Virus record (IMG/VR): IMGVR_UViG_2585427716_000002
Location: 1 to 64,000 of that record
DNA length: 64,000 nt
Origin: a virus
Taxonomy: Duplodnaviria > Caudoviricetes
Strand: one strand, 5' to 3'
In this document: in pieces, positions 1-60,985 of the stretch
How the letters are laid out: each line of letters starts with the position of its first letter
Position numbering within the stretch: the stretch's first letter is position 1
Notes under the pieces: model-generated
What the model was told of the DNA's origin: nothing
Databases searched by the model: none
Seen by the model: only the letters and a program-made list of their open reading frames with translations
Program-made: the position numbers and the translations under genes

Positions 1-134
1 CCTGTCAAGGTAGCGACAAGGTATTTTAGCTGGTTTAGTTTATCTAGGAGATACCTGAGAAAATGCGAGAAAGTCAGTGGTATCAAGGATTTGTCGAAAT
101 TAAAAATTAGTAGGTAGTACCTTATATAAAGATC

Positions 135-28300: not shown

Positions 28301-29263
28301 ATGCCCTCAAACAAGTATAACCAACTTAGAATAGAAGGTCTTCCCGACCTCCATAACAATGCCCTTTTAAAGGCGTGCCTCGAAGATTCAGACCTCTTGG
28401 CAGAATTACTACAGAGGAACAAAGATTTTATTTTCTCCATTATCACCCATTACAAGGGTAACATTGAATCCCTTAAAGAGCGCTTCAACATTTCAGAGGA
28501 AGAGTTATTGCAACACGCCTACATTGGTATACTCACAGCTCTAAGAGACTTTGATTTCACAAGAGGTGTCCGTTTTACTACTTTCGCTTATCGCCCCATC
28601 ATTTGGGAAATCAATCAATTCATGTATAACGACTCACGTTTAGTTAGGTTGAGTAGAAGTGCTGTCAACTTAGTTAAAAAAATGGAGCAGATAGAAAACC
28701 AGTTAGGTTATTTCCCTAAACCTGATGAGATGTCCAGCATTCTAGGGGTTCCTCCAAGCAAGATCGAAGAAGTTCTGAGATTTGCTAAAGATCTTACTTA
28801 TATAGACTCACTTCAAGATTTCGATCTAGAGGACTCTGAAATCGACTTTGAAAATGAGGTTGACGACAAAGTCTATGTACAAAGTCTGCTAGAGGAATCA
28901 GATTTAGATGAGTTTGAGTCTAAAGTGGCTGATCTCATCATGGATGGGCTTAACAACTCTCAGATAGCTGAGGCTCTCGGCGTTTACCCTATGACGATAA
29001 ACAGAGCAATAGAACGCATTCGCAGTAAAGTAGCAAATGACTTCAATGACCGTCGGATATCGAAATACGAAAAAGAAATTGAATTAATTGCAGAAGAAAT
29101 GGAAGAACGAAGTTGCATAATGCACATCGACGATATCAAAGACCTTTTGGATGTGTGTGGGTATACCATCGAAACCTACACCCCACGCATTCTTTACTAC
29201 ATTAGACAAAAAGCAATGATACGTGTAAATGAGAATCTAGTCGAATGTGGAAACCAGCATTAA
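28301..29263 (+). CDS. Second sigma-70-family factor with C-terminal extension
   Basis: EELLQHAYIGILTALRDFDFTRGVRFTTFAYRPIIWEI; region 3 and region 4 HTH. Confidence 0.9.
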   Translation: MPSNKYNQLRIEGLPDLHNNALLKACLEDSDLLAELLQRNKDFIFSIITHYKGNIESLKERFNISEEELLQHAYIGILTALRDFDFTRGVRFTTFAYRPIIWEINQFMYNDSRLVRLSRSAVNLVKKMEQIENQLGYFPKPDEMSSILGVPPSKIEEVLRFAKDLTYIDSLQDFDLEDSEIDFENEVDDKVYVQSLLEESDLDEFESKVADLIMDGLNNSQIAEALGVYPMTINRAIERIRSKVANDFNDRRISKYEKEIELIAEEMEERSCIMHIDDIKDLLDVCGYTIETYTPRILYYIRQKAMIRVNENLVECGNQH

Positions 29264-30690
29264 AGGAGAGGTTGAAGTTGGATTACCGGATACAACTAGT
29301 TATTTCAAACGGTTATGCAGCAGACAAAGATATCTACTGCACGTGTGGTTACAATAGGAAAGTAAAGTACAGAGAAGAAGCAGGACGTTGCCCTAAATGT
29401 GGGGTAACTGAGACAAAGAAAATCAACTACATCCGTACGAACTACACGTATATAGACACCTTATTCAAAGTGATCAGTAAAACTGATCAAGGGTTTCACA
29501 TAGAAGGAGAGGAATTATTTATCTCATTTGATTTACCTGAGAAGAAATTTACAATCGAATCGAAAAATGTTAGAACCTTATCCTTTAAGCTAAAGGATAA
29601 GGTAATTCAACTATCCAAGAATGGGCAAATAATGTCAGTTTCAGACTCTAATATAAACCAATTCTTTAAAGGAGCGCCGATAGAAAGAGTCCTGGACGTA
29701 ATTTCTACCGACCGCAACAAAGAGTTATATAGATTTTGCTATAACCACCTAAGCTGTATGGGATATGAACGTAACAACATGTGGGGAAGAGGTCTTACAC
29801 GTTTAAAGACCTACCCTGTTATTGAAACAATAGGGCTAAGCCCCTTGGTCAATCACCTTAATGACTTTTGGGTATTTCATACAACTCTCACAAGGTCAAA
29901 AGAAACTATGCCACCTCACAAGCTTCTAGGGGTCCCGAAGTTCATGCTTAATTATATAAGCCGCATGAGAACATACCCCACCTATAAACATGAACGCCTA
30001 AAGCAGTTGTGTCAGTATTTTGACGGAAATAGCCTCAAACTCATTATGGAGATCTTCGACGAAGAGAGTGACATAGACAAAGTTCCCGATATAGCTGAAA
30101 CTTTAGTCGAAGTACATAGGGATTATGGCTACTCAGACCTCAGACGTACCATTCTTTATATCACAAGAGAGGTCAAACTTGAGCAAGGTATCGTCAATCC
30201 ATCCGAAGCTATTACTCTCATACGTGACTTAGCACGAATGAATATTGCTATGGAAAAATCGTTCACCAAGTACCCTAAATCCTTGAAAAAGGACCATGAC
30301 GTGGCATTGGCAAACTACAAAACAAGAGAAAGCGAGTTCAAACAAAAAGAGTTTGCAAAAGTAACTGAGTACGAGGATTACAGAGACTTGTCCTTCATCG
30401 GCAAGTTCTTCTCCATTATTCGGCCATCTCATGTCAGGGAGGTAATAAAAGAAGGTGAATCCCTATCCCACTGTGTTTCCTCTTATATAGATGACATTAT
30501 TAAAAGGAAATGTAAGATACTCTTTCTTCGGGATTCTAAACAGCCTGATGAATCCCTAGTTACTGTGGAAGTCCGTGGTAACGTTGTCCGCCAAGTTCGA
30601 GGAAAATTCAACAGACGTCCCACAACCGAAGAAAGTGCCTTTATTGAATCATGGGCGAAGAAAAAGAATTTAGAAATACAATGTCACTAA
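29245..30690 (+). CDS. PcfJ-domain protein
   Basis: PKSLKKDHD...EGESLSHCVSSY...ILFLR...TVEV...QVRGKFN. Confidence 0.85.
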   Translation: MWKPALKERLKLDYRIQLVISNGYAADKDIYCTCGYNRKVKYREEAGRCPKCGVTETKKINYIRTNYTYIDTLFKVISKTDQGFHIEGEELFISFDLPEKKFTIESKNVRTLSFKLKDKVIQLSKNGQIMSVSDSNINQFFKGAPIERVLDVISTDRNKELYRFCYNHLSCMGYERNNMWGRGLTRLKTYPVIETIGLSPLVNHLNDFWVFHTTLTRSKETMPPHKLLGVPKFMLNYISRMRTYPTYKHERLKQLCQYFDGNSLKLIMEIFDEESDIDKVPDIAETLVEVHRDYGYSDLRRTILYITREVKLEQGIVNPSEAITLIRDLARMNIAMEKSFTKYPKSLKKDHDVALANYKTRESEFKQKEFAKVTEYEDYRDLSFIGKFFSIIRPSHVREVIKEGESLSHCVSSYIDDIIKRKCKILFLRDSKQPDESLVTVEVRGNVVRQVRGKFNRRPTTEESAFIESWAKKKNLEIQCH

Positions 30691-31450: not shown

Positions 31451-31741
31451 ATGGTAGAAACTCTCTTCGCAAGCGCTACTCTTCTATTGTTTGTTGCAAT
31501 CTTGACTGAATCAATTACAGAGGTGATTAAAAACCTCTTCCCTGAGGGGTTGGTGCAGGATAAAGTCACTTATATCCTCTCCATTGCTGTAGGTATTTTA
31601 CTCGCATTCATCTTTGACTTAGAGCCTTTTGGGTTGGAAGGCGTTGGTGTGATTGTAAGTAAGGTTCTTATGGGGATTATAGCTAGCCGTGGTGCAAACT
31701 ACGTGAACGGATTCTTGAAACGGTTTGAAATCCTACGGTAA
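31451..31741 (+). CDS. Holin-like 3-TM membrane protein
   Basis: ESITEVIK...GIIASRGANYV pattern. Confidence 0.6.
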   Translation: MVETLFASATLLLFVAILTESITEVIKNLFPEGLVQDKVTYILSIAVGILLAFIFDLEPFGLEGVGVIVSKVLMGIIASRGANYVNGFLKRFEILR

Positions 31742-31743
31742 AC

Positions 31744-31773
31744 AAAAAAGACTACCATGTCGGTAGTCTTTTT
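31744..31773. terminator. Bidirectional terminator ending the flagellin transcript
   Basis: AAAAAAGACTACC-atgtc-GGTAGTCTTTTT. Confidence 0.85.
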
Positions 31774-31784
31774 TATTATAGCTA

Positions 31785-32702
31785 TTAACGTAACAATTGA
31801 AGTACGTTTTGTGGTTGTTGGTTTGCTTGAGCAAGCATAGCTTGAGAAGCTTGAGAAAGAATGTTGTTCTTTGTGAACTCACTCATTTCTTTCGCCATGT
31901 CAACGTCACGGATACGAGACTCAGCAGCTGTCAGGTTTTCACCAGAAGCGCTCAAGTTGTTGATTGTGTGCTCAAGACGGTTTTGTACCGCACCTAATTT
32001 TGAACGTTGTTTAGAAACAGTATTGATTGCGTCATCAACTGTTTTAAGTTGAGCATTGAATCCTACAGTAGCAGTGTCAGCCGCATTATCTTTGAATTTT
32101 GTTACGTCGATGTCAGATACTGCTTGTCCAGTAAGAAGTGTCGTACCGTCTGTATCTAAAGCACCAATTGCTGTAGCTGCCATGCTTTCAATGTTGACAG
32201 AAAGCTGTTGACTGCTGTTAGCTCCGATTTGGAATGTTAATGATTTACCGCCAGCTTGCGAGAAATCGCCATTAAGAAGTTTTTTACCGTTAAATTCAGT
32301 ACGGTCGGAGATACCGTTAGCGTTTGCTCCGCCACCGATTTCTTCAACTAGAGATTTGATCTCATCTTGGATCGCTCCAAGATCTGTACCATCTTGTGTA
32401 CCTGTGTTTCCAGCTTGAACAACTAGTTCACGAACACGTTGAAGAATAGAGTGAGTTTCAGTTAATGCACCCTCAGCTGTTTGGATAAGTGAGATTCCGT
32501 CTTGAGAGTTTTTAGAAGCCATATCAAGACCTCTGATTTGTCCTCTCATTTTTTCAGAGATCGCAAGACCAGCCGCGTCATCTCCCGCACGGTTGATACG
32601 AAGACCAGAAGAAAGTTTCTCCATGTTCTTTTGTGCCGCACCGTTGTTTGCGCCTAAACGGTTTAATGTGTTAAGTGCTGCGATATTGTGGTTAATTCTC
32701 AT
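31785..32702 (-). CDS. hag: Flagellin
   Basis: MRINHNIAALNT...LSSGLRINRAGDDAAGLAISEKM and RIRDVDMAKEMSEFTKNNILSQASQAMLAQANQQPQNVLQLLR; termini near-identical to B. subtilis Hag, variable centre. Confidence 0.98.
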   Translation of the reverse strand: MRINHNIAALNTLNRLGANNGAAQKNMEKLSSGLRINRAGDDAAGLAISEKMRGQIRGLDMASKNSQDGISLIQTAEGALTETHSILQRVRELVVQAGNTGTQDGTDLGAIQDEIKSLVEEIGGGANANGISDRTEFNGKKLLNGDFSQAGGKSLTFQIGANSSQQLSVNIESMAATAIGALDTDGTTLLTGQAVSDIDVTKFKDNAADTATVGFNAQLKTVDDAINTVSKQRSKLGAVQNRLEHTINNLSASGENLTAAESRIRDVDMAKEMSEFTKNNILSQASQAMLAQANQQPQNVLQLLR

Positions 32703-32922
32703 TTTTTGTTACCTCCGTGTAATGTTTTTTGGAAACCTCTTCGATATCCTTATCTGGCGAGATTTCCGTCCGATGAATTCGAAACTCTTTTGGAGCGTCT
32801 ATAGCAATTCTCACTTGATTTTTTCTATCTTTGATCTTGAGGACCGTAATCTTAATCTCATTCCCTATTGAATCTGTTATAATGAAAGATTCTTCGTATT
32901 GTCTAGATATTACAAGTGCCAT
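32692..32922 (-). CDS. csrA: CsrA/RsmA-family translational regulator (divergent)
   Basis: MALVISRQYEESFII...IKITVL...QVRIAIDAPKEFRIHRTEI; RBS AAGGAGGAG; stop overlaps hag start. Confidence 0.88.
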   Translation of the reverse strand: MALVISRQYEESFIITDSIGNEIKITVLKIKDRKNQVRIAIDAPKEFRIHRTEISPDKDIEEVSKKHYTEVTKNEN

Positions 32923-32969
32923 GCTATTTTTCTCCTCCTTGAGCTTGTCATTCATCCCTGACAATTAAT

Positions 32970-32996
32970 ATATCGACGATGGGTATTAAATGTTTA
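32970..32996 (-). promoter_or_regulatory. SigD (sigma-28) promoter for csrA-hag
   Basis: TAAA-15bp-GTCGATAT vs consensus TAAA-N15-GCCGATAT. Confidence 0.8.
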
Positions 32997-33027: not shown

Positions 33028-33051
33028 AAAAACCGCCCGTAAAGGCGGTTT
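33028..33051 (-). terminator. Terminator after endolysin, insulating csrA-hag
   Basis: Minus strand AAACCGCC-tttacg-GGCGGTTTTT. Confidence 0.8.
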
Positions 33052-33062
33052 AATGTCCCACT

Positions 33063-34268
33063 TTAAAACATCACATTCCATGTATTGTATCCAACAATAC
33101 CGTCTACTCCCAAGAAAGGGAATTTAGATTGGTAGTTCTTTACAGCCTTTTCTGTCGCTGCACCGAAGTCACCGTCTACACTAATCTTCAATGCTCTTTG
33201 AATCGCTTCAACGTCTTTGCCGTGTGCCCCTCTTTTTACAGGAGAGCCTGGGTATGGTCTGACAGGCTTATGTTTAAGGTACTCAGCTAGCCGAGCGTCT
33301 ACCTTTTTCATTGATGTTTTCTTTGCAGTATTGGAAGATGGTGTACTTGCACTCTTATACCCAACAAGGACTTTTTGACCAACCTGCAATTTAAGTGGAT
33401 TAATTCCTGGGTTTAACTTTTCAATGTTTGCTACTGTGGTTTTGTAGTCGACTGCTAAGTGTGAAAGTGTTGGACTATTCTTAGAGATTGTCCCATAGAT
33501 TGGACTCTTACCACTATCTGTGGTTTTACTTTCCTCCTGGATAAGTAATGTGCTTCCAATTTGAAGAGCAAGAACATCGATCTCAGGATTTAATGCTTTT
33601 AGTTTTGCCACTGTAGTTCCATACTCATTTGCAATTTTATACAGAGTATCTCCTGAAACCACCTTATGTGTCTTCCCACTTTTTACAGACGCTGTTTGTG
33701 GTTTTGCTGATTTACCGGAACACTCTTTGTATTCGGCGGCCACATCAGTTATCAGCTGGTTGTAAGTTTTACCGATATGTTTCAGACCGTTAGATGGATC
33801 AATTTTACGCTTAGGGTCTAAAGTTTCGTGACCCACAATATCACGTTTAGGGTCTAAGCCGAACTTATAGCAAAGATAAGCTAAAATCCAAACATATCGA
33901 GCATAAGATTTTGCTCCATCGATGTTCCCTCCCCAACATAACTCAACTCCGATCGCTGCGTCATTTGCGTCCGCACCAAACATTCTATTATCTGTTGTTA
34001 CATTGTAGATAACATGGTATGCTCGTTCAGGCGTTCCAAGTACCGCTGGAATGCACTCTCTGATACACTCGTCATCGACAAAAATTTGGGCACTTGCTGC
34101 AATGGTTGGTGAGTTTCGATAATAGTTAATATTACCTTTCGCTGTAGATCCTGGGTTTCCAGTGTCGTGGGCTACAAGGAATCTTACGTTTATCTTTCCT
34201 CCAGGACGTCTTTTAGTGCCTGTAGGCAATAAATCTGAAATAATATCGTATTTCATCTTAAAACTCAT
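33063..34268 (-). CDS. Endolysin: N-acetylmuramoyl-L-alanine amidase + 2 LysM + PG-binding domain
   Basis: VAHDTGNP..SA...IGVELC..IVGH..K.DP; HKVVSGDTLYKIA; DGDFGAATEKAVKNYQ..DGIVG. Confidence 0.93.
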   Translation of the reverse strand: MSFKMKYDIISDLLPTGTKRRPGGKINVRFLVAHDTGNPGSTAKGNINYYRNSPTIAASAQIFVDDECIRECIPAVLGTPERAYHVIYNVTTDNRMFGADANDAAIGVELCWGGNIDGAKSYARYVWILAYLCYKFGLDPKRDIVGHETLDPKRKIDPSNGLKHIGKTYNQLITDVAAEYKECSGKSAKPQTASVKSGKTHKVVSGDTLYKIANEYGTTVAKLKALNPEIDVLALQIGSTLLIQEESKTTDSGKSPIYGTISKNSPTLSHLAVDYKTTVANIEKLNPGINPLKLQVGQKVLVGYKSASTPSSNTAKKTSMKKVDARLAEYLKHKPVRPYPGSPVKRGAHGKDVEAIQRALKISVDGDFGAATEKAVKNYQSKFPFLGVDGIVGYNTWNVMF

Positions 34269-34962: not shown

Positions 34963-35009
34963 CTACCTTTACCACTAAATATAGAGTCGTGCGCCGATCC
35001 TACCAACAC

Positions 35010-35053
35010 TTGACACTTAACATAATCTCTTGTATAATTGTGTTATGTTAAGT
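35010..35053 (+). promoter_or_regulatory. SigA promoter of the recombinase overlapped by an 11-bp perfect inverted repeat
   Basis: TTGACA-17-TATAAT; ACTTAACATAA (35015-35025) / TTATGTTAAGT (35043-35053). Confidence 0.8.
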
Positions 35054-35069
35054 CGAAAGGGATGATTCC

Positions 35070-35927
35070 TTGAATTACGCTAATAGATTTGAAACACATA
35101 TGAGAGTAGAAAAAGACTTATCTGATAACACAATCTCCAACTATATGAGGGACCTTGGCAAATTTACCGACTACATAGATGTCGATCTGATAGATGTCAC
35201 CCCGGACCATGTACGAACCTTTATCTCACACCTCTCCAAAAATGGTTTAAAGCGCAACTCCATTAACCGGGCACTTTACTCACTTAAATCCTTTTATAAG
35301 TACCTCAAGGAGGTAGAAGGAGTCATACAAGCTACCCCCACTGATGGGATAAAGGTAGGTTCTCGTGAAAAATCGTTGCCTAAATTTCTCTCAAAAGAGG
35401 ATGTGTTACGTCTTTTGGAAACTGCCAGCAGAGAAGGAGTAAGAAGCCGCCTTTACGTAGAGCTTTTGTATGGATTGGGTGGCCGTGTCGCTGAGGTTGC
35501 TGCCTTACGTGTCGAAGACATAGATTTTGAAGGTAATTATATCCGTCTGAGGGGTAAAGGAAATAAAGAAAGGCATAACCCAATACACGAAAGCTGTATT
35601 CAACTTATACGGCAATATATCAAAGATCTAGGGATAACCTCAGGATTTTTATTCCCGCATAGGTTCGATAAATCAAGACATGTAACAAGGGAAGCGATAT
35701 TCCTCAATATAAAAAATATTGCTGATAAAGCCGGTATAGATAGAAACCTCGTCAGCCCTCACGTCTTCCGGCACAGTTTTGCCACACACTTGTTGGATAA
35801 TGGATGTGACATGGCCATTGTCCAAGAGTTTTTAGGGCATGAGGACATCTCAACAACTAAGATTTATGCCAAGGTTACAAGAGGAAACAAATCAAATAAT
35901 TATAAAAAATTCCACCCTCTTGCCTGA
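35070..35927 (+). CDS. XerC/XerD-family tyrosine recombinase
   Basis: GGRVAE, GKGNKER, SPHVFRHSFATHLL, LGHEDISTTKIY. Confidence 0.93.
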   Translation: MNYANRFETHMRVEKDLSDNTISNYMRDLGKFTDYIDVDLIDVTPDHVRTFISHLSKNGLKRNSINRALYSLKSFYKYLKEVEGVIQATPTDGIKVGSREKSLPKFLSKEDVLRLLETASREGVRSRLYVELLYGLGGRVAEVAALRVEDIDFEGNYIRLRGKGNKERHNPIHESCIQLIRQYIKDLGITSGFLFPHRFDKSRHVTREAIFLNIKNIADKAGIDRNLVSPHVFRHSFATHLLDNGCDMAIVQEFLGHEDISTTKIYAKVTRGNKSNNYKKFHPLA

Positions 35928-50071: not shown

Positions 50072-51961
50072 TTATAAATTTTCTTTCAAAAACCCAAGCC
50101 CAATCGGTGCATAAGGAGTCATATTTGCCAACAGAAACGGCGTTCTTGGGGTATCTGCTAAGGTGTACCGATAAGTCTGTTCGTAGTCATAGTCCATAAT
50201 GACTTCAATGCCGTCAATCGGCGCTGCCCCTAGAATTAGTTTTTTATTAGACCCGTCTACTGTAAACTTTCCTTCCTCGGGAGGGGTGCTAGGATCAAAC
50301 TCTACATATTCAGCTTGAGTCAGGGTTGTACATCCTGTGTCACTGACAAGACGAATCTCAATGTCACCATCTATTACTGGTTTATGGAATAGATGAAATT
50401 CCTTAGTGAATCCGTCACCTGTACCAACGTGCTCACTGTTCGATGTCTCTTTAACCTCTAACTCATCGAGCTGAGCGATATTCTTAGGATGGATAGCGTA
50501 AACTTCATCTAACCTTCCGACATACCCGTCAGCTGGATGGACAATATACATCGGTGAAATATGGTACTTACCTGAGTATACCGATGGGTTAAATCTAGAT
50601 TCGTTACTTGGGTCAACGTCAGCGTCATGTGTAATAAATGCGAGATAGTGTTTTTGATACATTGCCCCGCCTACCGTACGTTGCACCATGACTGAGCTGT
50701 TTCCATTAGATGTATTGACTCCGTAATCCACTTTATTTCTCCCGATCTTCAACCCTGAGCTGTACCCTATTTCATCTTCGGATCTCGCTCCTCCAATAAG
50801 CACATTATTTAGTCTAGGGGTCTTCCCAATTGTAGAGAGACGGCCAATATACAACGGTGCAAAGTAAGTGCTCTCAGGATCAGGGGCAGGGTCCAATCTA
50901 AAGTAAGACACGATACGGTCTTTTGTGATATTTCCCCAAAAATAAACTTGAGAGTCACGTCCCCACCCTAATCCCATCTCTTCCTGGGGGATGAAGGAAA
51001 CTGCTGTTGGTACAGATGGATAAATAAAACGAACTGCATTATAAGCGGCACCCATCAATTCCGTCGGTACTGATGGGTTGAAAGGCAATACCTCTATGTC
51101 ACCATAGCTACCGTTAGAATCTTTAATCGCTTCGATTTCATAATCGGCGTATAAAGCTAAAGGTTCTGTCCCCTCATTAAATGTTACAGTGCCCTCATCA
51201 TGGTTGACCGTATAATCAGCAGGATCGATAGGATCGGTACCATCGACGGTTTCATAAAATTTGTAAGAGTTTTCCCTGATTCGCTGGTTACCGGGTAGGA
51301 TTTTAAATCTGAAAACTCTTTCCGCTTCGTCCAACAGTTCAGCTTGATTCGGGTTTTCTGATCGAAGTATCAACTTAGTTGGGATAAATCCCTCAAAAGT
51401 AAAAAACCACAATCGTTTAACAACGTCAGGAGCATTGTCAGTCAGTGCGTATGTAGCTCTAAGTACGCCCGACTGACTTTCCTCAAAGGTTATTGTCCCT
51501 TTTTCCCCATCTACAATGTACGGAGTCTCGGTAGGTTTCACCATCTCCCCACCCTCTCGGTACACGATGACACTTGATGGGACTATCGGTTTAACCTTGA
51601 CTTCAAAAACTGTATTTAGTTTTGTTGCCCCATTTGGCGTAACGTCCTTTAACTCTCCTAGAAACGTGTCTTTTGAGATAACCGGCTCTTCTCCAAACGG
51701 GGTTACTTTTCCTCCGTACCCCGTTGTAAAGCCAAAGTACCGGTGTTGGTTATCACTCCCCTGCGATTCAAACAGGTATGTCTCAGCAAAAGTTTTACGG
51801 TATGGGTCCTTGACTCCGTTTTTATCAGTTAACTGGGCAAATGATCGGTATTTACCTAGGGTACTCCACCCTCCCGCATTAAATAGCGCCTCTAAATCAG
51901 TCGGAAGCAACTGCACCGATAGATCAATATCAAAGAACCCATCTACATTAATTTTCGACAT
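50072..51961 (-). CDS. Virion protein, divergent member of the paralog family
   Basis: SNGNSSV..GAMYQKHYL..FNPSVYSGKYH..VHP.DG..G.L...P.GLG. Confidence 0.7.
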   Translation of the reverse strand: MSKINVDGFFDIDLSVQLLPTDLEALFNAGGWSTLGKYRSFAQLTDKNGVKDPYRKTFAETYLFESQGSDNQHRYFGFTTGYGGKVTPFGEEPVISKDTFLGELKDVTPNGATKLNTVFEVKVKPIVPSSVIVYREGGEMVKPTETPYIVDGEKGTITFEESQSGVLRATYALTDNAPDVVKRLWFFTFEGFIPTKLILRSENPNQAELLDEAERVFRFKILPGNQRIRENSYKFYETVDGTDPIDPADYTVNHDEGTVTFNEGTEPLALYADYEIEAIKDSNGSYGDIEVLPFNPSVPTELMGAAYNAVRFIYPSVPTAVSFIPQEEMGLGWGRDSQVYFWGNITKDRIVSYFRLDPAPDPESTYFAPLYIGRLSTIGKTPRLNNVLIGGARSEDEIGYSSGLKIGRNKVDYGVNTSNGNSSVMVQRTVGGAMYQKHYLAFITHDADVDPSNESRFNPSVYSGKYHISPMYIVHPADGYVGRLDEVYAIHPKNIAQLDELEVKETSNSEHVGTGDGFTKEFHLFHKPVIDGDIEIRLVSDTGCTTLTQAEYVEFDPSTPPEEGKFTVDGSNKKLILGAAPIDGIEVIMDYDYEQTYRYTLADTPRTPFLLANMTPYAPIGLGFLKENL

Positions 51962-51983
51962 TCTTAATCACCTCTTTTTGTTG

Positions 51984-54119
51984 TTAAGCAACTGTCACTG
52001 TCGGTGCTACTACACCCACTGACTCATTGCCAGCAAGGTCTACGGTTGTAATTTTTATTTCAGGGGAAAATCCCGTGGTCAAACCTGTTAACCTATACTG
52101 ATTCGTACCTGTTATGCCTTTCGCATATAGAGATCCGTCCACATAAATGTTGATATAACTCAAGTCTGCGTCAGTTGGTAATGTGTACGCTAAGTCGATT
52201 GTTTGAGCCTGGGGGCTACTTGTATTAGTAATAACTACTTCATCTGGAGGTGTCACATCGTTTTCAATATCGTGAGGTACTGCGTTAGGGTTGAAATCCT
52301 CTGCGTATATCCCTAATCCGACAGGACGGAACGGTGTGGCAGGAACTTTTGTCAATGGAGAGACAGCTCCAATACTCAAATACCTATACATTTCGTAAAC
52401 TTTTTCAGGGCAATCAGTCTTTCTGACTCGCAAATTGGCTGCGTTGACACTTTGCGCATTGAAACCAATGGCCTTGTCTAGATACCCACGAATACCTTCT
52501 TCGGGATGAACTACAGCGATCCTAGAAGAATGAATTTTACTTGAGTACCTAGAAGCATTGAACTGGTACTTATAGTTTTTAGTGTTTTCCATAGACTCGT
52601 AAGCTCTAGGGTACTTTTTGTTTCGATCCGTCATCTTTGTAGGAGGTAGCTGATTAGGTGGAGCACTCCATGATAAGTAATGTGCTTGGTAACGGGCACC
52701 AAAACGAGAACGAGATACCATAACAGAATCAACACCATTTGAAGGATGGTGCGGGTAAAGTTTCAACAAAGGTTGTATCGTTTCACCAACCTTTGACCCT
52801 GGATCATCAAAATCGAAAGTTGAGACAATCGTTTCGTTGTCCGCATTTTGACTATTCGTGGTCAGCCTTTGAACAAGAGTGTTTTTAGTATCGATTGCAC
52901 GTGCTGTGGTACCTTGTTGCGCTCTCTCAACAAGTAGTAGGTTACCAGATTTTTGAAGTAGCTTTACAATTTCTCCAGTGCCTTTATTTCCTATAATCAA
53001 GTACGTTGGTGCTTCGGGTAACTTTTCACCATCATTTACTAGAATCTGAGTTGCTTCTGATGTAATGTCTCTAGCTAAAGAAGTGGCCTCATTTGCAGAA
53101 GTAACTTTACTAGCAGGTGGGACAGTTCCTCCAAATAATGCGTATCCTTCGTCACCGTCCCCGTCAGTAGAATTTACCCTACCGAAATAAAGAGGGATGG
53201 TGGGGACTAAGTTACTCTCCCACGCAGGTGCGTTATCCGCTTGCAAGATGAGAAAAATTGTTCTGCTGTCCACATACCCCCGAACCCTAATCTCTGAATC
53301 TGTCCACCAGTTCGTGTGCCAAATCGGATTGTTTATATGCTCTAGGAATTGTGCTCTCAAGGTCGTCTTGACCATAGGTGACTGCATAACACGAGGGTCC
53401 GCTTTTGTAATTGCAAGCTCTCTCGAAGATGATTCAGGTACCCTAGAAAATTCGGTACCAAACACCTCGATATCTAAAGCAGATCGGATAACATGGTAAG
53501 GAGACGCTGATGTATAATGGCCGTCAAACTCCATGTCTGATCCTTCCGGGTCATTTACGCTATCTTCACTTGAATACCCGTACCACCACTCATACCAATT
53601 AATTCGATCATTGTCCCGGGATAAATTGTACGCAGTTCCTCCCATACCAGGGGCAGTGATGATGGATACGACATTATCGTTAGAAGCATAATTAGAGTTT
53701 GGTAACTTCTCAAGCATATAAAAATATAGGTTGGTTTTACTGGACGCCTCTGCAAATTTCTGTTTGACCCACTCTTCCCAAGAAGGTGTTCTACCAAAGT
53801 TCGAGTCCTTAGGATCTTGTTCATCATTTATCCGTCTGATTGGATCTGTTTTATCAGTCAAGTAGGATAAATAAAACTGAGCTACTGTCGCAAAACCGAG
53901 CAACTTACCGTCAGCATTCTTAAAAATGTCATGTTTTGCAATGGCATAGTTTGCTTTGCTAGTGCCTGAGACATAAGCTCGGGCGTCTACTACAGCTTTA
54001 TAAAAAGACCTGGCTTTGACCCACCCATTTTCAGTAAGCATTTTACCGAAAACATCCTGTAAATTGTCTTCCTCGAATTTTAAAAGAGATTCCTTCGGGG
54101 TCGAGTCAATATACGGCAT
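51984..54119 (-). CDS. Virion protein, paralog family, C-terminal FN3
   Basis: MQSP, TNWWTDS, HPSNGVDSV, GARYQAHYLSW, SRYS.K.HSS, SPLTK.PAT.FRP.GLG; DLAGNES. Confidence 0.75.
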   Translation of the reverse strand: MPYIDSTPKESLLKFEEDNLQDVFGKMLTENGWVKARSFYKAVVDARAYVSGTSKANYAIAKHDIFKNADGKLLGFATVAQFYLSYLTDKTDPIRRINDEQDPKDSNFGRTPSWEEWVKQKFAEASSKTNLYFYMLEKLPNSNYASNDNVVSIITAPGMGGTAYNLSRDNDRINWYEWWYGYSSEDSVNDPEGSDMEFDGHYTSASPYHVIRSALDIEVFGTEFSRVPESSSRELAITKADPRVMQSPMVKTTLRAQFLEHINNPIWHTNWWTDSEIRVRGYVDSRTIFLILQADNAPAWESNLVPTIPLYFGRVNSTDGDGDEGYALFGGTVPPASKVTSANEATSLARDITSEATQILVNDGEKLPEAPTYLIIGNKGTGEIVKLLQKSGNLLLVERAQQGTTARAIDTKNTLVQRLTTNSQNADNETIVSTFDFDDPGSKVGETIQPLLKLYPHHPSNGVDSVMVSRSRFGARYQAHYLSWSAPPNQLPPTKMTDRNKKYPRAYESMENTKNYKYQFNASRYSSKIHSSRIAVVHPEEGIRGYLDKAIGFNAQSVNAANLRVRKTDCPEKVYEMYRYLSIGAVSPLTKVPATPFRPVGLGIYAEDFNPNAVPHDIENDVTPPDEVVITNTSSPQAQTIDLAYTLPTDADLSYINIYVDGSLYAKGITGTNQYRLTGLTTGFSPEIKITTVDLAGNESVGVVAPTVTVA

Positions 54120-54239
54120 TAACTTCACCTTCTCTTCTAATTATTAGAATGCTAGAGGCATTAAAATTGAGGTACCTCTAGCACTACAGGTAAACCTATT
54201 ATAGGAAACACCTGTCTAGATATAACCATTGGTTGTCTG

Positions 54240-55925
54240 CTATGAGACATCGCCGGTGACTTCGCTACCTGTTGATTTATTCCCTGAGTAATCTACAGAA
54301 ACAACTTTAAAAGTAACTTCTCCTGCATTTAACCCCTTGAAGACGTATTCAGTAACACCTGTGACGCCCTCTACGTACTTCTCACCGTTAAGGAGTATCT
54401 CTACCCCTGCTAAATCGGTATCGCTAGGGTCAACCCACGACAATTTAACTTGACCCGGCTGAGGATTGCTCAGTTTAAGCTCGTTGACGTTTCCAGGAGC
54501 CTCTTCGTCTGTGGGATTAGGTCTAACCTTCCCATTCTGATTTAATCCTTCTTTATAAATCCCCAAACCCATAGGCCGGAAGTGAGTTGCTGGTCTTTTT
54601 GTCAGTGGGGATACTGCGCTTATAGAGACACACTGGTACACGTCGTACACTGTCTCAGATGAACCGTCTCTTAGGATACGTAGTTCACTAGAATTTAGGT
54701 TTGTTGCATTTAATCCAACTGCTTTACTTAGATGTCCTCGCAGCCCTTCTTCGGGATGGATAAGGTAAATGTGAGATGTTTGAACCTTTCCCGAATATCT
54801 AGAAGGATTGAATTGGTATCCGTTTCTTCCCCATGCACGTGGGTAATCTTTCAAATCATCAGAGTTTCCGTTATCTCTGGTTGGAGGCATGTCTTGAGCC
54901 GCCGTACTCCATGAAAGGAAGTAGCTTTGGTACCTTGCCCCTAACTTGGTTCTGTTTATAATGACAGAATCTATCCCATTTGACGGGTTTGACGGATACT
55001 TTTTAAGCACGGGCATTATACGTTTCCCGCCTTCTAACGTAATATCGTCAAAATCATAGTGGGATACCTCGGTAGACGAAGAACCCATCGGCACTGTCCC
55101 TGCAAACATCGCAACTGCTGGATCTCCTTCATCCACTGCTTCAATGTCACCAAAGTAGAAAGGTACAGATGGAACAACATTGTCCTCCCACATCGGCGTT
55201 ACATCGGCCTGTAGAATCAAAAACATGCTCTTGCTATCCAAGTGGCCCCTAATACTTATCTCAGAATCTCCCCACCAATTAGTGTCCATATAAGGAAACT
55301 CAAGATTCTCTAAAAACTTTGCACGAAGAGAAGACTCTACAATAGGGGATTGCATGACTAAAGGATCAGCGGACTTCACAAACTCTGACCCAGCATTTGT
55401 CGACTTAAAATCTATACTTGTAACCTCTACGTCGAGCGCCATCCTTAACCGTTTCTCACCTTCTGATTCAGTTCCCCAAGGGGTGAATACGTTACTCCCT
55501 TCTTTAATGTTAGGTACCCTATCTAACATATAGAAATAAAGGGTGGTTTCTTCTTTGCGTTTGTAGAATTCTCTTGACATGTAGGCTGTTAGGGCTTCTT
55601 TTTCTGAGTCAGTTGAATTAAAGACATTGTAATACGGGAATCCATTGGCATGGTCTGTATAGTCTCCCCAGTCAGCGACTACAGCTAACCCTAACAAGTC
55701 TCCTCTAGCATTCCTTAGAATGACATGATTGGCTACTAGGAATCTGTCATCATGGCGACCTGCTACGTCATGCTCTGTTACAAAATGGACGGATGTAACC
55801 ATTTTTTTAAACTCTAACGCCTTAGTCCAACCATGCTTTAGCAGCAGGTCTTTGAAGCCCTTTTGTAACTCCCCTTCTCGAATTTTGTAGGGGGAGAGAG
55901 CAGGAGCGTTATCGATATAAGGCAT
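54240..55925 (-). CDS. Virion protein, paralog family, C-terminal FN3
   Basis: Same motif series; LSWVDPSD..VDYSGNKS. Confidence 0.75.
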   Translation of the reverse strand: MPYIDNAPALSPYKIREGELQKGFKDLLLKHGWTKALEFKKMVTSVHFVTEHDVAGRHDDRFLVANHVILRNARGDLLGLAVVADWGDYTDHANGFPYYNVFNSTDSEKEALTAYMSREFYKRKEETTLYFYMLDRVPNIKEGSNVFTPWGTESEGEKRLRMALDVEVTSIDFKSTNAGSEFVKSADPLVMQSPIVESSLRAKFLENLEFPYMDTNWWGDSEISIRGHLDSKSMFLILQADVTPMWEDNVVPSVPFYFGDIEAVDEGDPAVAMFAGTVPMGSSSTEVSHYDFDDITLEGGKRIMPVLKKYPSNPSNGIDSVIINRTKLGARYQSYFLSWSTAAQDMPPTRDNGNSDDLKDYPRAWGRNGYQFNPSRYSGKVQTSHIYLIHPEEGLRGHLSKAVGLNATNLNSSELRILRDGSSETVYDVYQCVSISAVSPLTKRPATHFRPMGLGIYKEGLNQNGKVRPNPTDEEAPGNVNELKLSNPQPGQVKLSWVDPSDTDLAGVEILLNGEKYVEGVTGVTEYVFKGLNAGEVTFKVVSVDYSGNKSTGSEVTGDVS

Positions 55926-55999
55926 ACACACACCTACTTTCAGTAATTTTTGTAATACATAAAGGGCGAGGAAGTTGTGTCCTCGCCCCCTTTCACCAA

Positions 56000-56031
56000 T
56001 ATTTATCGTTATGGACTAACCCCGAGTTGCG
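56000..56031 (-). promoter_or_regulatory. Phage-specific promoter, class 1
   Basis: Minus strand CGCAACT-N16-CGATAAATA. Confidence 0.75.
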
Positions 56032-56085
56032 AGCAACTTCCTCAATCATTATAGTTTCCATAAGGAACTGTTTAACGACTGCTCG

Positions 56086-57645: not shown

Positions 57646-57657
57646 AGATTTCCACCT

Positions 57658-57957
57658 CTATTCTTTTATTACTTCTACACTAAAACCCTGTAACTTTAAA
57701 TCTCTCGTCAAATACTCCGATAAATAGGTATTACTCGCCTTATTTACTTCGACAGGTTGGCCTTCCTTTCTCAAAACCAGTTCATCGGGAATTCCCGCAA
57801 GCTCGCCTTTAAATCGAACACTCGTCTTTACATTTATAATGTTATTCAGAGACTTCACAATCACATCGTTATTACCGCTTATCTTCACTTGATGTAGGAC
57901 TTCGCCATCATTGTCAATGAAAGCGAAGTTCTTACCTCTTGTGATTTTAAGTATCAT
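57658..57957 (-). CDS. Small hypothetical protein
   Basis: RBS AGGGGGT, 99 aa. Confidence 0.6.
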   Translation of the reverse strand: MILKITRGKNFAFIDNDGEVLHQVKISGNNDVIVKSLNNIINVKTSVRFKGELAGIPDELVLRKEGQPVEVNKASNTYLSEYLTRDLKLQGFSVEVIKE

Positions 57958-57972
57958 CGTATACCCCCTATT

Positions 57973-60522: not shown

Positions 60523-60526
60523 AGAA

Positions 60527-60985
60527 TTAACCCCCTTGTGCGGTTGTATTATCTCTGAGTCCTTGGTAATTGACCCAAGCGTACTTAGACTGCCCGCCAC
60601 GATTATTGAATTTAAAAGTTATGGTTTCACCCGCTTTAATTGACTTTACAGCCATTAGCTGAATTCCTTCCGGTACATCTTTGGTATAGATATTCTTGCA
60701 GATGTAATTGATAGGTTGATCATCCTTAACAAAAACACTCCAACTATCGGTCGGATGGTATCTATTTGCACCTACTGCAATGCTAGTCAATTCTATATCC
60801 ATTGGAGGTGTGTATTCTGCAACAAATTCCCCAACTTGCCCCGGGATCTCCAGTAAAATCCCCTCAGTGTAGGGTACAGTCTTTGTTGGCATGAATGGGT
60901 AATCTAAACGTCCTCCATTAAGGTGTCCGACCTGCCCTACTCTATCTAACTCGCCACCAACAACTATATTTGCACCAAAGGACAT
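60527..60985 (-). CDS. Late-region hypothetical protein
   Basis: RBS GAGGTG, 152 aa. Confidence 0.6.
   Translation of the reverse strand: MSFGANIVVGGELDRVGQVGHLNGGRLDYPFMPTKTVPYTEGILLEIPGQVGEFVAEYTPPMDIELTSIAVGANRYHPTDSWSVFVKDDQPINYICKNIYTKDVPEGIQLMAVKSIKAGETITFKFNNRGGQSKYAWVNYQGLRDNTTAQGG

What the first reader, a model, noticed from the sequence alone, without database searches (positions are those of the whole stretch)
31785..32996. Phage-encoded csrA-hag operon: candidate flagellin-switching (receptor/serotype conversion) system
Seen: an intact flagellin with B. subtilis-like termini but a different central region (e.g. extra GGGANAN before ISDRTEFNG) lies in the moron position just downstream of the endolysin. 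It is bracketed by terminators at 33028-33051 and 31744-31773, preceded by a divergent csrA whose stop overlaps the hag start, and driven by one SigD-type promoter (TAAA-N15-GTCGATAT). Established: the chromosomal B. subtilis order is fliW-csrA-hag with the SigD promoter between csrA and hag, CsrA represses hag translation, and several Bacillus phages (e.g. PBS1) use the flagellum as receptor. This layout (no fliW, promoter ahead of csrA, coupled genes) is not a simple copy of the host locus. Inference: in motile lysogens the phage CsrA damps host hag while the phage flagellin is built into the filament, like Salmonella FljA/FljB. That could block flagellotropic phages, including its own progeny, or change host recognition.
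Basis: partly seen in the sequence, partly recalled or inferred. Interest (0 to 1): 0.92.

Follow-up and report, generated by a model that had tools for sequence, protein, structure and literature searches.

The report
Phage-borne CsrA–flagellin cargo cassette
An integrated 124-kb Bacillus phage carries its own flagellin gene behind a stripped-down copy of the flagellin translation repressor CsrA; this two-gene unit recurs in unrelated Bacillus phages and probably lets the phage change what its host's flagella are made of.

Summary
Window 31785-32702(-) is an intact 305-aa flagellin. Window 32692-32922(-) is a divergent 76-aa CsrA whose stop overlaps the flagellin start by 11 nt. One TAAA-N15-GTCGATAT (SigD-type) promoter lies upstream, terminators bracket the pair, and the endolysin is the next gene upstream.

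The element is a ~124-kb prophage related to Brevibacillus phage Jenst, integrated in a tRNA-Val gene.

The pair is not a one-off. All 10 mobile-element flagellin loci I examined have a variant csrA directly upstream and no fliW nearby. They are this prophage, phage EZ-2018a, five ~200-kb jumbo-phage-like "plasmids" and three IMG/VR contigs. The promoter, a GGA-loop leader hairpin, a second GGA-loop hairpin inside the csrA 3' end and the hag Shine-Dalgarno are conserved.

The phage CsrAs keep the RNA-binding core but lack both known FliW determinants (N55 region, acidic D41). The phage Hag has host-identical termini. Its central region closely matches a flagellin allele of another species label that sits there without a phage-type csrA.

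The flagellin-switching reading is plausible but untested. I found no expression data, and the phage hag keeps both CsrA-type sites.

The closest published analogue is the Enterobacter prophage fliCP-tldR module. Earlier notes of this scan describe similar cassettes on other DNA (Paenibacillus and other Bacillota phages).

The parts
32970..32996 (-). SigD-type promoter, TAAA-N15-GTCGATAT
   Evidence: Read. It is the only match in the window. TAAA-N15-G(T/A)CGATAT is present in 7 of 7 aligned cassettes and in L031. L032 has N14. Function was not tested.
32945..32964 (-). Leader hairpin 1: a 6-bp stem with an 8-nt loop that holds GGA, at the 5' end of the predicted mRNA
   Evidence: Predicted in the MFE and centroid folds. 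The UGUCA...UGACA stem with GGA in the loop is present in all 7 cassettes of A3. A GGA-loop hairpin at this place can also be read by eye in L031 and L032 (not folded). The fold z-score alone is not significant.
32932..32940 (-). Shine-Dalgarno of the phage csrA (AAGGAGGAG), a possible CsrA site
   Evidence: AGGAGG is invariant in 7 of 7 cassettes.
32692..32922 (-). csrA_P, a 76-aa CsrA variant with a 4-residue and a 2-residue insertion, no N55-type C-terminal helix, and Arg at the D41-equivalent position
32731..32767 (-). Stem-loop inside the csrA 3' end: a 9-bp outer stem and a 4-bp inner stem presenting an AGGA loop. It is a BS1-like site for hag, with its GGA at -47 from the hag ATG
   Evidence: Fold. 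Pair counts: 87.7% of cells paired against 81.9% in shuffles (2 of 500 shuffles as high) and 22-50% when slid; the inner helix has 2 pairs with changes on both sides. L031, L032 and EZ-2018a have GGA-loop hairpins at this place on different stems, read by eye and not folded.
32711..32720 (-). hag Shine-Dalgarno ACACGGAGGU (BS2-like, GGA at -14)
   Evidence: ACACGGAGGUAA is invariant in 7 of 7 cassettes. GGA lies at -14 (-13 in L031) in 8 of 8 cassettes, and the host hag also has a GGA at -14.
31785..32702 (-). hag_P, a 305-aa flagellin. The N-terminal 100 aa differ from the host Hag at 3 positions, the C-terminal 75 aa are identical, and the central part is different and about 22 aa longer
31741..31777 (-). 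Intrinsic terminator behind hag
   Evidence: -19.2 kcal/mol, z -6.6.
33030..33051 (-). Intrinsic terminator behind the endolysin; it separates the lysis operon from the cassette
33063..34268 (-). Endolysin (context): Amidase_2, two LysM domains and PG_binding_1
1..15 (.). Left 15-bp att core of the ~124-kb prophage (context). The right copy is at contig C14 171612-171626, outside the window
   Evidence: Joining the outer flanks restores a tRNA-Val(GAC).

Best explanation
**What it is (well supported)**

This is a self-contained cargo cassette of an integrated ~124-kb temperate phage related to Brevibacillus phage Jenst. Its order is SigD-type promoter, GGA-hairpin leader, variant csrA (csrA_P), flagellin (hag_P), terminator. 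It belongs to a family of csrA-flagellin cassettes carried by at least three unrelated groups of Bacillus phages.

**How it most likely works (inferred)**

1. In motile lysogens the host's SigD polymerase transcribes one bicistronic mRNA.
2. CsrA_P keeps the RNA-binding core. It lacks the two features through which FliW switches Bacillus CsrA off: the N55 region and the acidic D41. It should therefore bind hag-type leaders, including the host's BS1/BS2, whatever the state of the Hag-FliW-CsrA checkpoint. The expected result is lower translation of host flagellin.
3. hag_P has its own BS1-like hairpin and its Shine-Dalgarno inside or next to the csrA_P reading frame. Ribosomes translating csrA_P melt that hairpin and end at or near the hag_P start. 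hag_P would then be translated in cis from the very mRNAs that make the repressor.
4. Hag_P has host-identical termini, so the host's FliS, FliW and export apparatus should handle it and it should polymerise. Its exposed central part differs.

**Expected net effect**

The filament shifts toward the phage-borne flagellin type (lysogenic conversion of the flagellar surface), and CsrA_P also limits its own operon.
For: **Identity and context**
- establish the ORFs and families.
- The element is a prophage: virion proteins, an RNA polymerase sigma factor, a recombinase, ribonucleotide reductase and DNA polymerase A.
- A virion protein is 64% identical to EZ-2018a and 46% to Brevibacillus phage Jenst.
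- An integrase and the halves of a split tRNA-Val mark the ends, and joining the outer flanks restores the tRNA.

**Recurrence**
- 10 of 10 mobile-element flagellin loci that I examined have a variant csrA directly upstream.
- In PLSDB, the 5 records with a close Hag (E<=1e-60) are the same 5 that carry CsrA_P.
- Those records look like jumbo phages: an annotated virion structural protein, a 6.4-kb lysozyme-family protein, and a Terminase_6N match in 4 of the 5 plasmid records.
- None of the 5 records searched carries FliW.

**Conserved control elements**

**The csrA frame runs into the hag ribosome site**
- The csrA frame runs into or through the hag Shine-Dalgarno in 7 of 10 cassettes. In the other 3 it stops 22-30 nt before the ATG.
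- The cassettes read the same Shine-Dalgarno in different frames: the window tail ends ...YTEV... and the licheniformis tail ends ...TRR. Database members end ...TRR or ...HGG.
- The overlap is therefore kept, not the tail peptide.

**Likely FliW-insensitive**
- The D41-equivalent residue is R/R/L/R/Q/K/K, acidic in 0 of 7, and the N55 helix is missing in 7 of 7.
- In B. subtilis, N55 is needed for FliW binding, and CsrA D41K blocks motility and resists FliW (Oshiro & Kearns; abstract and sections 3 and 7).

**RNA-binding core kept**
- The R44-equivalent Arg, APKE and the E of the R-x-E motif (E46-equivalent) are invariant. The R6-equivalent is present in 5 of 7.

**Flagellin**
- Hag_P termini are nearly identical or identical to the host's.

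**Precedent**
- Prophage fliCP-tldR silences host fliC and replaces it, using the host sigma-28 promoter (passages).
Against: - There is no expression or protein evidence. The only RNA runs found hold a chromosomal-type hag with the canonical leader, not the cassette.
- hag_P keeps both CsrA-type sites and csrA_P's own leader has two more. A repressor that FliW cannot switch off could throttle the whole cassette. Strict 1:1 coupling could not by itself supply the very large amount of flagellin a filament needs.
- Stop-start proximity is not universal: in 3 of 10 cassettes the csrA stop lies 22-30 nt upstream of the hag ATG.
- FliW-insensitivity rests on an alignment and on two mapped residues.
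- Sequence conservation does not guarantee that a CsrA represses B. subtilis hag. In Swarm-seq, E. coli CsrA and P. aeruginosa RsmA failed despite being conserved (abstract).
- The EZ-2018a-type CsrA lacks the R6-equivalent Arg.
Confidence: 0.45

Rival explanations
1. Self-governing extra flagellin copy. CsrA_P acts mainly on its own mRNA, so that a second, strongly transcribed hag does not flood the cytoplasm with flagellin. Host hag stays on and the filaments become mixed. The gain to the phage is the added flagellin type, not silencing of the host gene.
For: - All four GGA sites lie on the cassette's own mRNA.
- The repressor and its target are made from one transcript, which fixes their ratio.
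- B. subtilis runs Hag-FliW-CsrA at about 1:1:1 and needs cytoplasmic Hag kept low (start of the abstract of PMC6529632, search listing only).
- The phage brings no FliW.
Against: - A pure dosage governor would be expected to stay responsive to FliW. The family has lost both mapped FliW determinants in 7 of 7 members.
- The host leader carries the same kind of sites (GGA loop and GGA at -14), so spill-over onto host hag mRNA is hard to avoid.
Confidence: 0.25
2. Motility throttle. The main product is the FliW-resistant repressor. It lowers total flagellin synthesis and pushes lysogens toward a non-motile or biofilm state. This would resemble plasmid-borne RsmQ in Pseudomonas. Hag_P would serve mainly as a FliW sink or as a leftover target.
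For: - CsrA D41K, and CsrA variants that cannot bind FliW, block motility in B. subtilis.
- RsmQ, a plasmid CsrA homologue, switches its host from a motile to another state (start of the abstract of PMC9928087, search listing only).
- Autorepression sites sit on the cassette leader.
Against: - hag_P is intact in every cassette where the gene is complete (9 of 9; L033 is cut by the contig end), and its variable regions are diversified and full-length.
- A throttle alone would not need a flagellin, nor a hag ribosome site kept invariant.
Confidence: 0.15
3. Neutral passenger or assembly artefact. The pair would be a piece of chromosomal flagellar DNA picked up by chance or joined wrongly by the assembler, with no role.
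For: - The hag termini are 93-95% identical in DNA to the host's two flagellin genes. These are repeats that can confuse short-read assembly.
- The unitig that reaches hag from the csrA side holds only 29 nt of hag.
- The central region of hag_P closely matches a flagellin allele of another species label.
Against: - The same architecture occurs in 10 of 10 loci across three phage groups, including a PacBio assembly.
- The csrA family is far from any chromosomal csrA: 39% identity to the host's, and 0 of 60 relatives carry it at E<=1e-5.
- Frames are intact and control elements are conserved.
- The depth of the unique central unitig equals that of the phage flanks.
Confidence: 0.04

Closest known systems
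Flagellar-remodelling prophages of Enterobacter (fliCP-tldR; Wiegand et al., PMC10705468; Nat Microbiol 2026, PMC13418256; passages read)
   Same: A temperate phage carries a flagellin with conserved D0/D1 termini and a divergent exposed part. The gene is driven by the host's flagellar sigma factor and sits beside a dedicated regulator of flagellin expression. The proposed pay-offs are the same: surface change, flagellotropic phages and motility.
   Different: - The regulator there is an RNA-guided, nuclease-dead TnpB (TldR) that blocks the host fliC promoter. Here it is a CsrA-family RNA-binding protein acting, if at all, on translation.
- No TnpB-type domain was found anywhere in this genome.
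- Function is shown there and is untested here.
- The host is Gram-positive and has a FliW checkpoint.
Hag-FliW-CsrA partner switch of Bacillus subtilis (Oshiro & Kearns, bioRxiv 2020.07.02.184341, sections read; passages in PMC13443453)
   Same: The protein family, the target type (two GGA sites, one in a hairpin loop and one at the Shine-Dalgarno, GGA at -14) and the SigD-type promoter all match. The host's own locus has this layout.
   Different: - There is no fliW.
- The promoter lies ahead of csrA rather than between csrA and hag.
- The BS1-like hairpin lies inside the csrA frame.
- CsrA_P lacks the N55 region and the acidic D41.
- CsrA_P has a 4-residue and a 2-residue insertion and is 39% identical to the host CsrA.
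Salmonella fljBA phase-2 operon (FljA details recalled from general knowledge, not from a call; Hin-driven phase variation is mentioned in a passage)
   Same: One operon encodes an alternative flagellin plus a repressor of the other flagellin's expression that acts after transcription.
   Different: - The gene order is reversed and FljA is unrelated to CsrA.
- Switching there depends on an invertible promoter. No convincing inverted repeats flank this promoter.
- That operon is chromosomal, not phage cargo.
Chromosomal csrA-tldR-fliC loci of gut Bacillota (Oscillibacter, Flavonifractor; PMC13418256, passages)
   Same: A csrA is genetically tied to a particular flagellin gene in organisms with several flagellins. 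That CsrA was enriched on the 5' UTR of an alternative fliC at a CAAGGAUG stem-loop. The same 8-mer is found in the hairpin-2 loop region of the licheniformis-type cassettes and in the L032 leader.
   Different: Those loci are chromosomal and include TldR and often hin. The authors found no phage association for csrA-associated TldRs.
RsmQ, the CsrA homologue of plasmid pQBR103 in Pseudomonas fluorescens (PMC9928087; search listing and start of abstract only)
   Same: A mobile element carries a CsrA-family regulator that alters host motility behaviour.
   Different: RsmQ acts globally and is not paired with a flagellin. It sits on a Gram-negative conjugative plasmid.

Membership tests
CsrA/RsmA family (PF02599) | Profile match above the curated cut-off | tested here: met
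   53.5 bits against a cut-off of 27, E 2.3e-14. 52.4 bits in the whole-genome search. Matches to solved CsrA structures at E 8.5e-07 and weaker.
CsrA/RsmA family (PF02599) | RNA-binding core residues: the N-terminal strand with Arg, and the Arg equivalent to R44 in an xHRxE-type motif | tested here: met
   LVISR and IHRTE align to the solved CsrAs. The R44-equivalent is invariant in 7 of 7 cassette CsrAs and the R6-equivalent is present in 5 of 7. Which residues matter for RNA binding is partly recalled.
CsrA/RsmA family (PF02599) | Binds GGA-containing RNA and represses translation | not testable with these tools
   Only candidate sites were mapped.
FliW-controlled CsrA of Bacillales (partner switch) | C-terminal extension with the N55 contact region for FliW | tested here: not met
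   The host CsrA has the ...EENN... helix. All 7 cassette CsrAs lack it.
FliW-controlled CsrA of Bacillales (partner switch) | Acidic residue at position 41, which forms a salt bridge to FliW K123 | tested here: not met
   R in the window and R/L/R/Q/K/K in the relatives, so acidic in 0 of 7.
FliW-controlled CsrA of Bacillales (partner switch) | fliW encoded with csrA | tested here: not met
   One FliW in the genome, beside the chromosomal csrA. 0 of 5 related mobile-element records carry one.
Flagellin (Flagellin_N + Flagellin_C) | Both terminal helical domains intact and an open frame | tested here: met
   E 6.5e-45 and 2.4e-34. The C-terminal 75 aa are identical to the host Hag and the N-terminal 100 aa differ at 3 positions.
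Flagellin (Flagellin_N + Flagellin_C) | Exported and built into the filament | not testable with these tools
   Inferred only from the host-identical termini.
SigD (sigma-28 type) promoter | TAAA, then about 15 nt, then (G)CCGATAT-like -10 element | tested here: met
   TAAA-N15-GTCGATAT, conserved in the homologous cassettes. The consensus itself is recalled. The host hag promoter shows TCCGATAT.
SigD (sigma-28 type) promoter | SigD-dependent transcription start | not testable with these tools
   No RNA run holds the cassette.
Prophage flagellar-remodelling module (fliCP-tldR type) | Flagellin encoded within the boundaries of a temperate phage | tested here: met
   The cassette lies 32 kb inside a prophage bounded by att cores in a split tRNA-Val, with an integrase.
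Prophage flagellar-remodelling module (fliCP-tldR type) | TldR (nuclease-dead TnpB) with a guide RNA | tested here: not met
   PF07282 gives 0 matches in the genome. The neighbouring genes are an endolysin and small ORFs.
Prophage flagellar-remodelling module (fliCP-tldR type) | Selective repression of the host flagellin gene | not testable with these tools
   This is the central untested claim.
Hin-type invertible flagellin switch | Inverted repeats flanking the promoter segment, plus an invertase | tested here: not met
   Only weak scattered inverted repeats, 71-92% complementary, and none bracket the promoter. The nearby recombinase (35070-35927) is a tyrosine recombinase.

The most novel reading that the evidence does not exclude
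Temperate phages of Bacillota have repeatedly spread a compact 'flagellin conversion' unit.

- Its repressor is a CsrA that has lost the host's off-switch (FliW).
- The repressor's reading frame has swallowed the regulatory hairpin and ribosome site of the flagellin gene behind it. Only the phage's own flagellin mRNA, opened in cis by ribosomes making the repressor, would escape, while host flagellin mRNA is shut down.
- This would be a Gram-positive, translational counterpart of RNA-guided (TldR) flagellar remodelling.
- It would also be a vehicle that moves flagellin surface alleles between Bacillus species by recombination through the conserved termini.
Probability: 0.35. Interest if true: 0.85.

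Novelty: new variant of a known kind. Interest (0 to 1): 0.72.

Why it matters
- **Role of flagellin.** Flagellin is the receptor of flagellotropic phages, a major surface antigen and a very costly protein. A phage module that rewrites which flagellin a cell makes would be a new form of lysogenic conversion in Gram-positive soil, plant and food Bacillus.
- **Position in the literature.** The only published prophage flagellins, in Enterobacter, are called the first known example in the 2026 paper. They use a completely different regulator.
- **Natural variants for a studied checkpoint.** This cassette offers a family of natural CsrA variants that appear to be FliW-insensitive. That bears directly on the B. 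subtilis Hag-FliW-CsrA checkpoint.
- **A testable design.** A regulatory hairpin sits inside the repressor's own reading frame, so translation of the repressor could gate translation of its target.
- **Evolution of flagellin types.** The central part of the phage flagellin closely matches a flagellin allele of another species label. Such phages may therefore move flagellin types between species.
- **Tractability.** Every step can be tested with standard B. subtilis genetics.

Tried and rejected

I could not see the contexts of the CsrA_P homologues P0001-P0007 or of the near-identical Hag proteins P0008-P0014. I used plasmid and phage records and IMG/VR loci instead.
CsrA_P-FliW binding was judged from the alignment only.
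- A viral-contig scan with the single CsrA_P found nothing.
- A genome-contig scan with the CsrA_P alignment used one degenerate pattern. It returned only 6 CsrA-like matches in MAGs of other phyla, whose context I did not inspect.
- Megablast of 24 kb around the cassette and of the structural genes found no close phage or plasmid relative beyond hag itself.
- The EZ-2018a CsrA against plasmids gave no match.
- CsrA_P against 60 relatives gave 0 matches at E<=1e-5. These are species representatives, so strain-level carriage is unknown.
- PADLOC gave no defence family for either protein.

**Weak statistics**
- The SigD motif count in the window is not significant alone.
- The fold z-scores of leader hairpin 1 are -0.4 to +0.3.
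- The covariation support rests on 6 distinct, related sequences in a coding region.

**Sequencing runs**
- Runs X3, X10 and X4 showed no cover over csrA_P. I treat the absent cover as no evidence.
- I use only the positive loose ends, which run into a canonical chromosomal leader.
- No RNA evidence for the cassette was obtained.

**Readings considered and rejected**
- A hin-like invertible promoter.
- TldR involvement.
- The 200-kb records being ordinary plasmids: they carry virion and terminase-like genes.
- Misassembly.

**Not examined**
- 10 of the 11 'phages' records that matched Hag. These are fragments of 1.4-43 kb from human faecal, Listeria, E. coli and Salmonella entries.
- The full list of 34 plasmid hits of the virion protein: only 15 rows were seen.

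**Literature**
- Searches for a published Bacillus phage csrA-flagellin cassette found none.
Full report
**1. The observation**

- A 305-aa open frame at 31785-32702(-) matches both flagellin terminal domains (Flagellin_N 6.5e-45, Flagellin_C 2.4e-34).
- A 76-aa frame at 32692-32922(-), starting at the ATG behind AAGGAGG, matches CsrA. Pfam gives 53.5 bits against a cut-off of 27. PHROGs gives 'CsrA-like regulator' at 6.2e-13.
- The csrA stop lies 11 nt inside the flagellin frame.
- TAAA-N15-GTCGATAT sits at 32996-32970(-). It is the only such match in the window. One match is not significant by itself: 0.26 expected, and 23 of 100 shuffles gave at least one.
- Strong terminator hairpins lie behind the endolysin (33051-33030) and behind hag (31777-31741; -19.2 kcal/mol, z -6.6).
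- The upstream gene is an Amidase_2, LysM x2 and PG_binding_1 endolysin.

**2. The element**

The window is contig C14 47725-111724 of a 4.0-Mb, 110-contig genome.

- The surrounding genes are phage genes: paralogous virion structural proteins, an RNA polymerase sigma factor, a UvsX-like recombinase, a ligase and a methyltransferase. Beyond the window lie ribonucleotide reductase, a SNF2 helicase and DNA polymerase A.
- A virion protein is 64% identical to Bacillus phage EZ-2018a and 46% to Brevibacillus phage Jenst.
- A 15-bp direct repeat lies at C14 47725-47739 (window 1-15) and at 171612-171626. The 3' half of a tRNA-Val precedes the left copy, and the 5' half follows the right copy.
- Joining the outer flanks restores a tRNA-Val(GAC) that neither junction contains.
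- A tyrosine integrase and an intact tRNA-Val(GAC) lie just inside the right end.
- The cassette therefore sits 32 kb inside an integrated prophage of about 123.9 kb.

**3. The host's own genes**

- The chromosome (contig C44) has fliW-csrA-terminator-promoter-leader-hag. The leader carries a GGA-loop hairpin (GGA at -38) and a GGA Shine-Dalgarno (at -14).
- A second 273-aa flagellin lies 26 kb away, next to uvrA.
- The genome holds one FliW and two CsrA genes; the second CsrA is the phage's.
- Phage Hag is 80% identical to host Hag by tblastn. The N-terminal 100 residues differ at 3 positions and the last 75 are identical. The host lacks about 22 residues of the central part.
- At the DNA level the termini are 93-95% identical and the centre 57%.
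- Phage CsrA is 39% identical to host CsrA.

**4. Recurrence**

The pair is a recurrent phage cargo unit. Every mobile-element flagellin locus I examined, 10 of 10, has a variant csrA immediately upstream.

| Locus | Element | Neighbours |
|---|---|---|
| window | ~124-kb prophage | endolysin |
| L001 | phage EZ-2018a (118 kb) | Rap-like TPR protein, ThyX |
| L002, L003, L027-L029 | five ~200-kb 'non-mobilizable plasmids' of B. halotolerans, B. licheniformis, B. paralicheniformis | DnaA_N-domain protein, dnaN |
| L031 | 124-kb IMG/VR contig, close relative of this phage | endolysin and the same convergent genes |
| L032 | 52.6-kb IMG/VR contig | small ORFs (not characterised) |
| L033 | EZ-2018a-like IMG/VR contig, cut 17 codons into hag | Rap-like TPR protein |

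- EZ-2018a was PacBio-assembled as a separate contig at about twice the chromosomal coverage. Its announcement paper never mentions flagella (passages).
- L031 has the cassette in the same place as this phage, but with a 384-aa flagellin and a 62-aa CsrA.
- In PLSDB, the 5 records with a close Hag (E<=1e-60) are exactly the 5 with CsrA_P.
- The 200-kb records look like jumbo phages. They have an annotated 'low copy number virion structural protein', a 6.4-kb lysozyme-family protein and giant PA14-domain proteins. Four of the five plasmid records were searched, and each has a Terminase_6N match above the cut-off.
- None of the 5 records searched carries FliW, and each carries exactly one flagellin.
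- Among species-representative genomes the variant CsrA is rare: 0 of 36 other same-genus and 0 of 24 same-order genomes at E<=1e-5.
- A profile search of 1.84 billion cluster representatives gave five close clusters (E 5e-34 to 3e-15). Beyond them lies a wider set of short CsrAs that share the same insertion before the conserved Gly.

**5. Conserved control elements**

Aligning promoter to hag start in seven cassettes (A3) shows five invariant features:

- TAAA-N15-G(T/A)CGATAT;
- a stem (UGUCA/UGACA) directly behind the -10 element, with GGA in its loop;
- the csrA Shine-Dalgarno AGGAGG;
- an A-A-G-G-A inside the csrA 3' end;
- the hag ribosome site ACACGGAGGUAA.

Further points:

- L031 has the same promoter spacing and L032 has N14. 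By eye, both have GGA-loop hairpins at the two corresponding places, built on different stems. I did not fold them.
- In the window the second GGA sits in a 4-nt loop on a 4-bp inner stem and 9-bp outer stem (32767-32731).
- Across the alignment 87.7% of cells pair. Column shuffles give 81.9% (2 of 500 reach the observed value) and slid partners give 22-50%. The inner helix has two pairs with changes on both sides (U-A, U-G, C-G).
- This is suggestive only: six distinct, related sequences in a coding region.
- GGA lies at -14 from the hag ATG in 7 of 8 cassettes (-13 in L031), and the host hag also has one at -14. The hairpin GGA lies at -45 to -52, against -38 in the host.
- The licheniformis-type hairpin and the L032 leader contain CAAGGAUG. 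That is the motif reported for a flagellin-linked CsrA of Oscillibacter (passage).

**6. The csrA frame runs into the hag ribosome site**

- In the window and in B. halotolerans the csrA stop lies 11 nt past the hag ATG.
- In the four licheniformis-type cassettes and in L032 it lies in or just behind the Shine-Dalgarno, 6-7 nt before the ATG.
- In EZ-2018a, L033 and L031 it lies 22-30 nt before the ATG.
- The tails differ because the same Shine-Dalgarno is read in different frames. The window tail ends ...YTEV... and the licheniformis tail ends ...TRR. Database members end ...TRR or ...HGG.
- The tail peptide is thus not conserved, but the overlap with the hag initiation region is.
- In all ten cassettes the GGA-loop hairpin lies inside the csrA frame. 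Translation of csrA must open it.

**7. The variant CsrA**

All seven cassette CsrAs compared (A6) share these features:

- The Arg equivalent to R44, the APKE motif and the Glu of the R-x-E motif (E46-equivalent) are kept.
- Five of seven keep the Arg of the first strand. The two EZ-2018a-type proteins do not.
- All have an extra residue after Met1 and a 4-residue insertion before the conserved Gly.
- None has the C-terminal helix that holds N55 in the host protein.
- The residue equivalent to D41 is R, R, L, R, Q, K, K, so never acidic.

In B. subtilis, mutation of N55 abolishes FliW binding and inhibition. CsrA D41K blocks motility and resists FliW unless FliW K123 is charge-swapped (Oshiro & Kearns; abstract and sections 3 and 7). 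My inference is that these phage CsrAs cannot be switched off by FliW. I could not test binding.

**8. Origin of the flagellin**

- The central region (residues 100-225) is 97-100% identical to proteins named 'flagellin Hag [Bacillus subtilis / Bacillus]'. These occur on many contigs, some of chromosome length (P0014: 119 contigs).
- None of 48 other species representatives of the genus has the same allele. The best is 81%.
- One DNA run of another species label (X3) has two flagellin genes about 25 kb apart. The hag 5' and 3' ends sit on 72-kb and 164-kb contigs.
- In that run a 514-nt unitig with 11 differences covers the central region, and the 5' end runs on into a canonical chromosomal-type leader.
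- The unitigs cannot say which of the two genes holds that central region. Neither 5' end runs into a phage-type csrA.
- The phage flagellin is therefore an ordinary Bacillus flagellin type, foreign to this host and carried in a phage cassette. The 93-95% identical termini would allow exchange with chromosomal genes.

**9. How it most likely works**

Shown:

- the gene content;
- the conserved signals;
- the loss of the FliW determinants;
- the position of the hag control hairpin inside the csrA frame;
- the host-identical flagellin termini.

Inferred:

- SigD-dependent transcription in motile lysogens.
- A FliW-insensitive CsrA_P that binds hag-type leaders, including the host's.
- Escape of hag_P in cis through translation of csrA_P.
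- Incorporation of Hag_P into the filament.

I put this at about 0.45. The main rivals are a self-governing extra flagellin copy with mixed filaments (0.25) and a motility throttle (0.15). A neutral passenger or artefact is unlikely (0.04).

Against the favoured reading:

- hag_P keeps both CsrA-type sites.
- The csrA_P leader looks autorepressible.
- Strict coupling cannot alone yield filament-scale amounts of flagellin.
- There are no expression data. The RNA runs found hold only a chromosomal-type hag.
- Conserved CsrAs do not always repress B. subtilis hag (abstract).

**10. Comparison with what is known**

- The closest published system is the Enterobacter prophage fliCP-tldR module, where a phage flagellin replaces the host's (passages).
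  - TldR represses the host fliC promoter about 100-fold.
  - The phage gene uses the host FliA promoter.
  - The 2026 paper reports higher motility, lower TLR5 recognition and better gut colonisation.
- The same authors describe chromosomal csrA-tldR-fliC loci in gut Bacillota and state that these have no phage association.
- This genome has no TnpB-type domain and no invertible-promoter signature.
- Six literature searches found no description of a Bacillus phage csrA-flagellin cassette.
- I therefore class it as a new variant of a known kind.

**11. Earlier notes of this scan**

- Notes on this same stretch point to the missing FliW tail and to the GGA hairpins. I checked both here.
- Follow-up reports on other genomes describe similar 'flagellin plus CsrA without FliW control' cassettes. 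These are Paenibacillus phage-plasmids, a thermophilic Bacillota giant phage and other large phages.
- They are not independent evidence. I did not examine those genomes.
- My own searches independently found the Bacillus examples listed above.

Noticed in passing
window 1-15 and contig C14 170122-171650 (outside the window): The ~124-kb prophage splits a tRNA-Val(GAC) gene in its anticodon arm at a 15-bp core. It carries its own intact tRNA-Val(GAC) next to its integrase, possibly replacing the gene it disrupts. Joining the outer flanks restores the tRNA.
   Followed up: partly
contig C14 1-47737 (left of the window): A second prophage of about 43 kb is flanked by an 88-bp repeat (98.9% identical) holding the same tRNA 3' half, with its own integrase at C14 46365-47576. 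More phage genes (an SPP1-type portal fragment) lie at the contig start. Together these form a tandem prophage array at one tRNA-Val site.
   Followed up: partly
window 35004-35927: A XerC/D-like tyrosine recombinase (phrog_1 integrase, 9e-61) sits alone on the + strand between the lysis and tail-fibre modules. A perfect TTGACA-17-TATAAT promoter lies inside a 22-nt imperfect inverted repeat. Its role is unknown.
   Followed up: no
L031 2430-2500 and host contig C44 (leader of the second flagellin, L013): In the related 124-kb IMG/VR phage, the csrA 3' end and the hag leader carry a hairpin almost identical to the leader hairpin of this host's second, uvrA-linked flagellin. That hairpin is not of the hag type. 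Cassettes seem to have captured leaders of either chromosomal flagellin gene.
   Followed up: partly
window 50072-60600: Four to five paralogous 'virion structural protein' genes (phrog_9258 and phrog_11431) lie in a row, with different added domains.
   Followed up: no
L002, L003, L027-L029 (200-kb plasmid records): In the jumbo-phage-like 'plasmids' the cassette lies next to a DnaA_N-domain protein and dnaN. Within about 3 kb there is an LXG polymorphic toxin with a YezG immunity gene, and in one record a Rap phosphatase. This looks like a cargo island.
   Followed up: no
window 28301-30690: A phage RNA polymerase sigma factor gene (phrog_351, 1.7e-39) overlaps the start of a 481-aa PcfJ-like protein gene. 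MazG and holin-like small genes follow, converging on the cassette.
   Followed up: no
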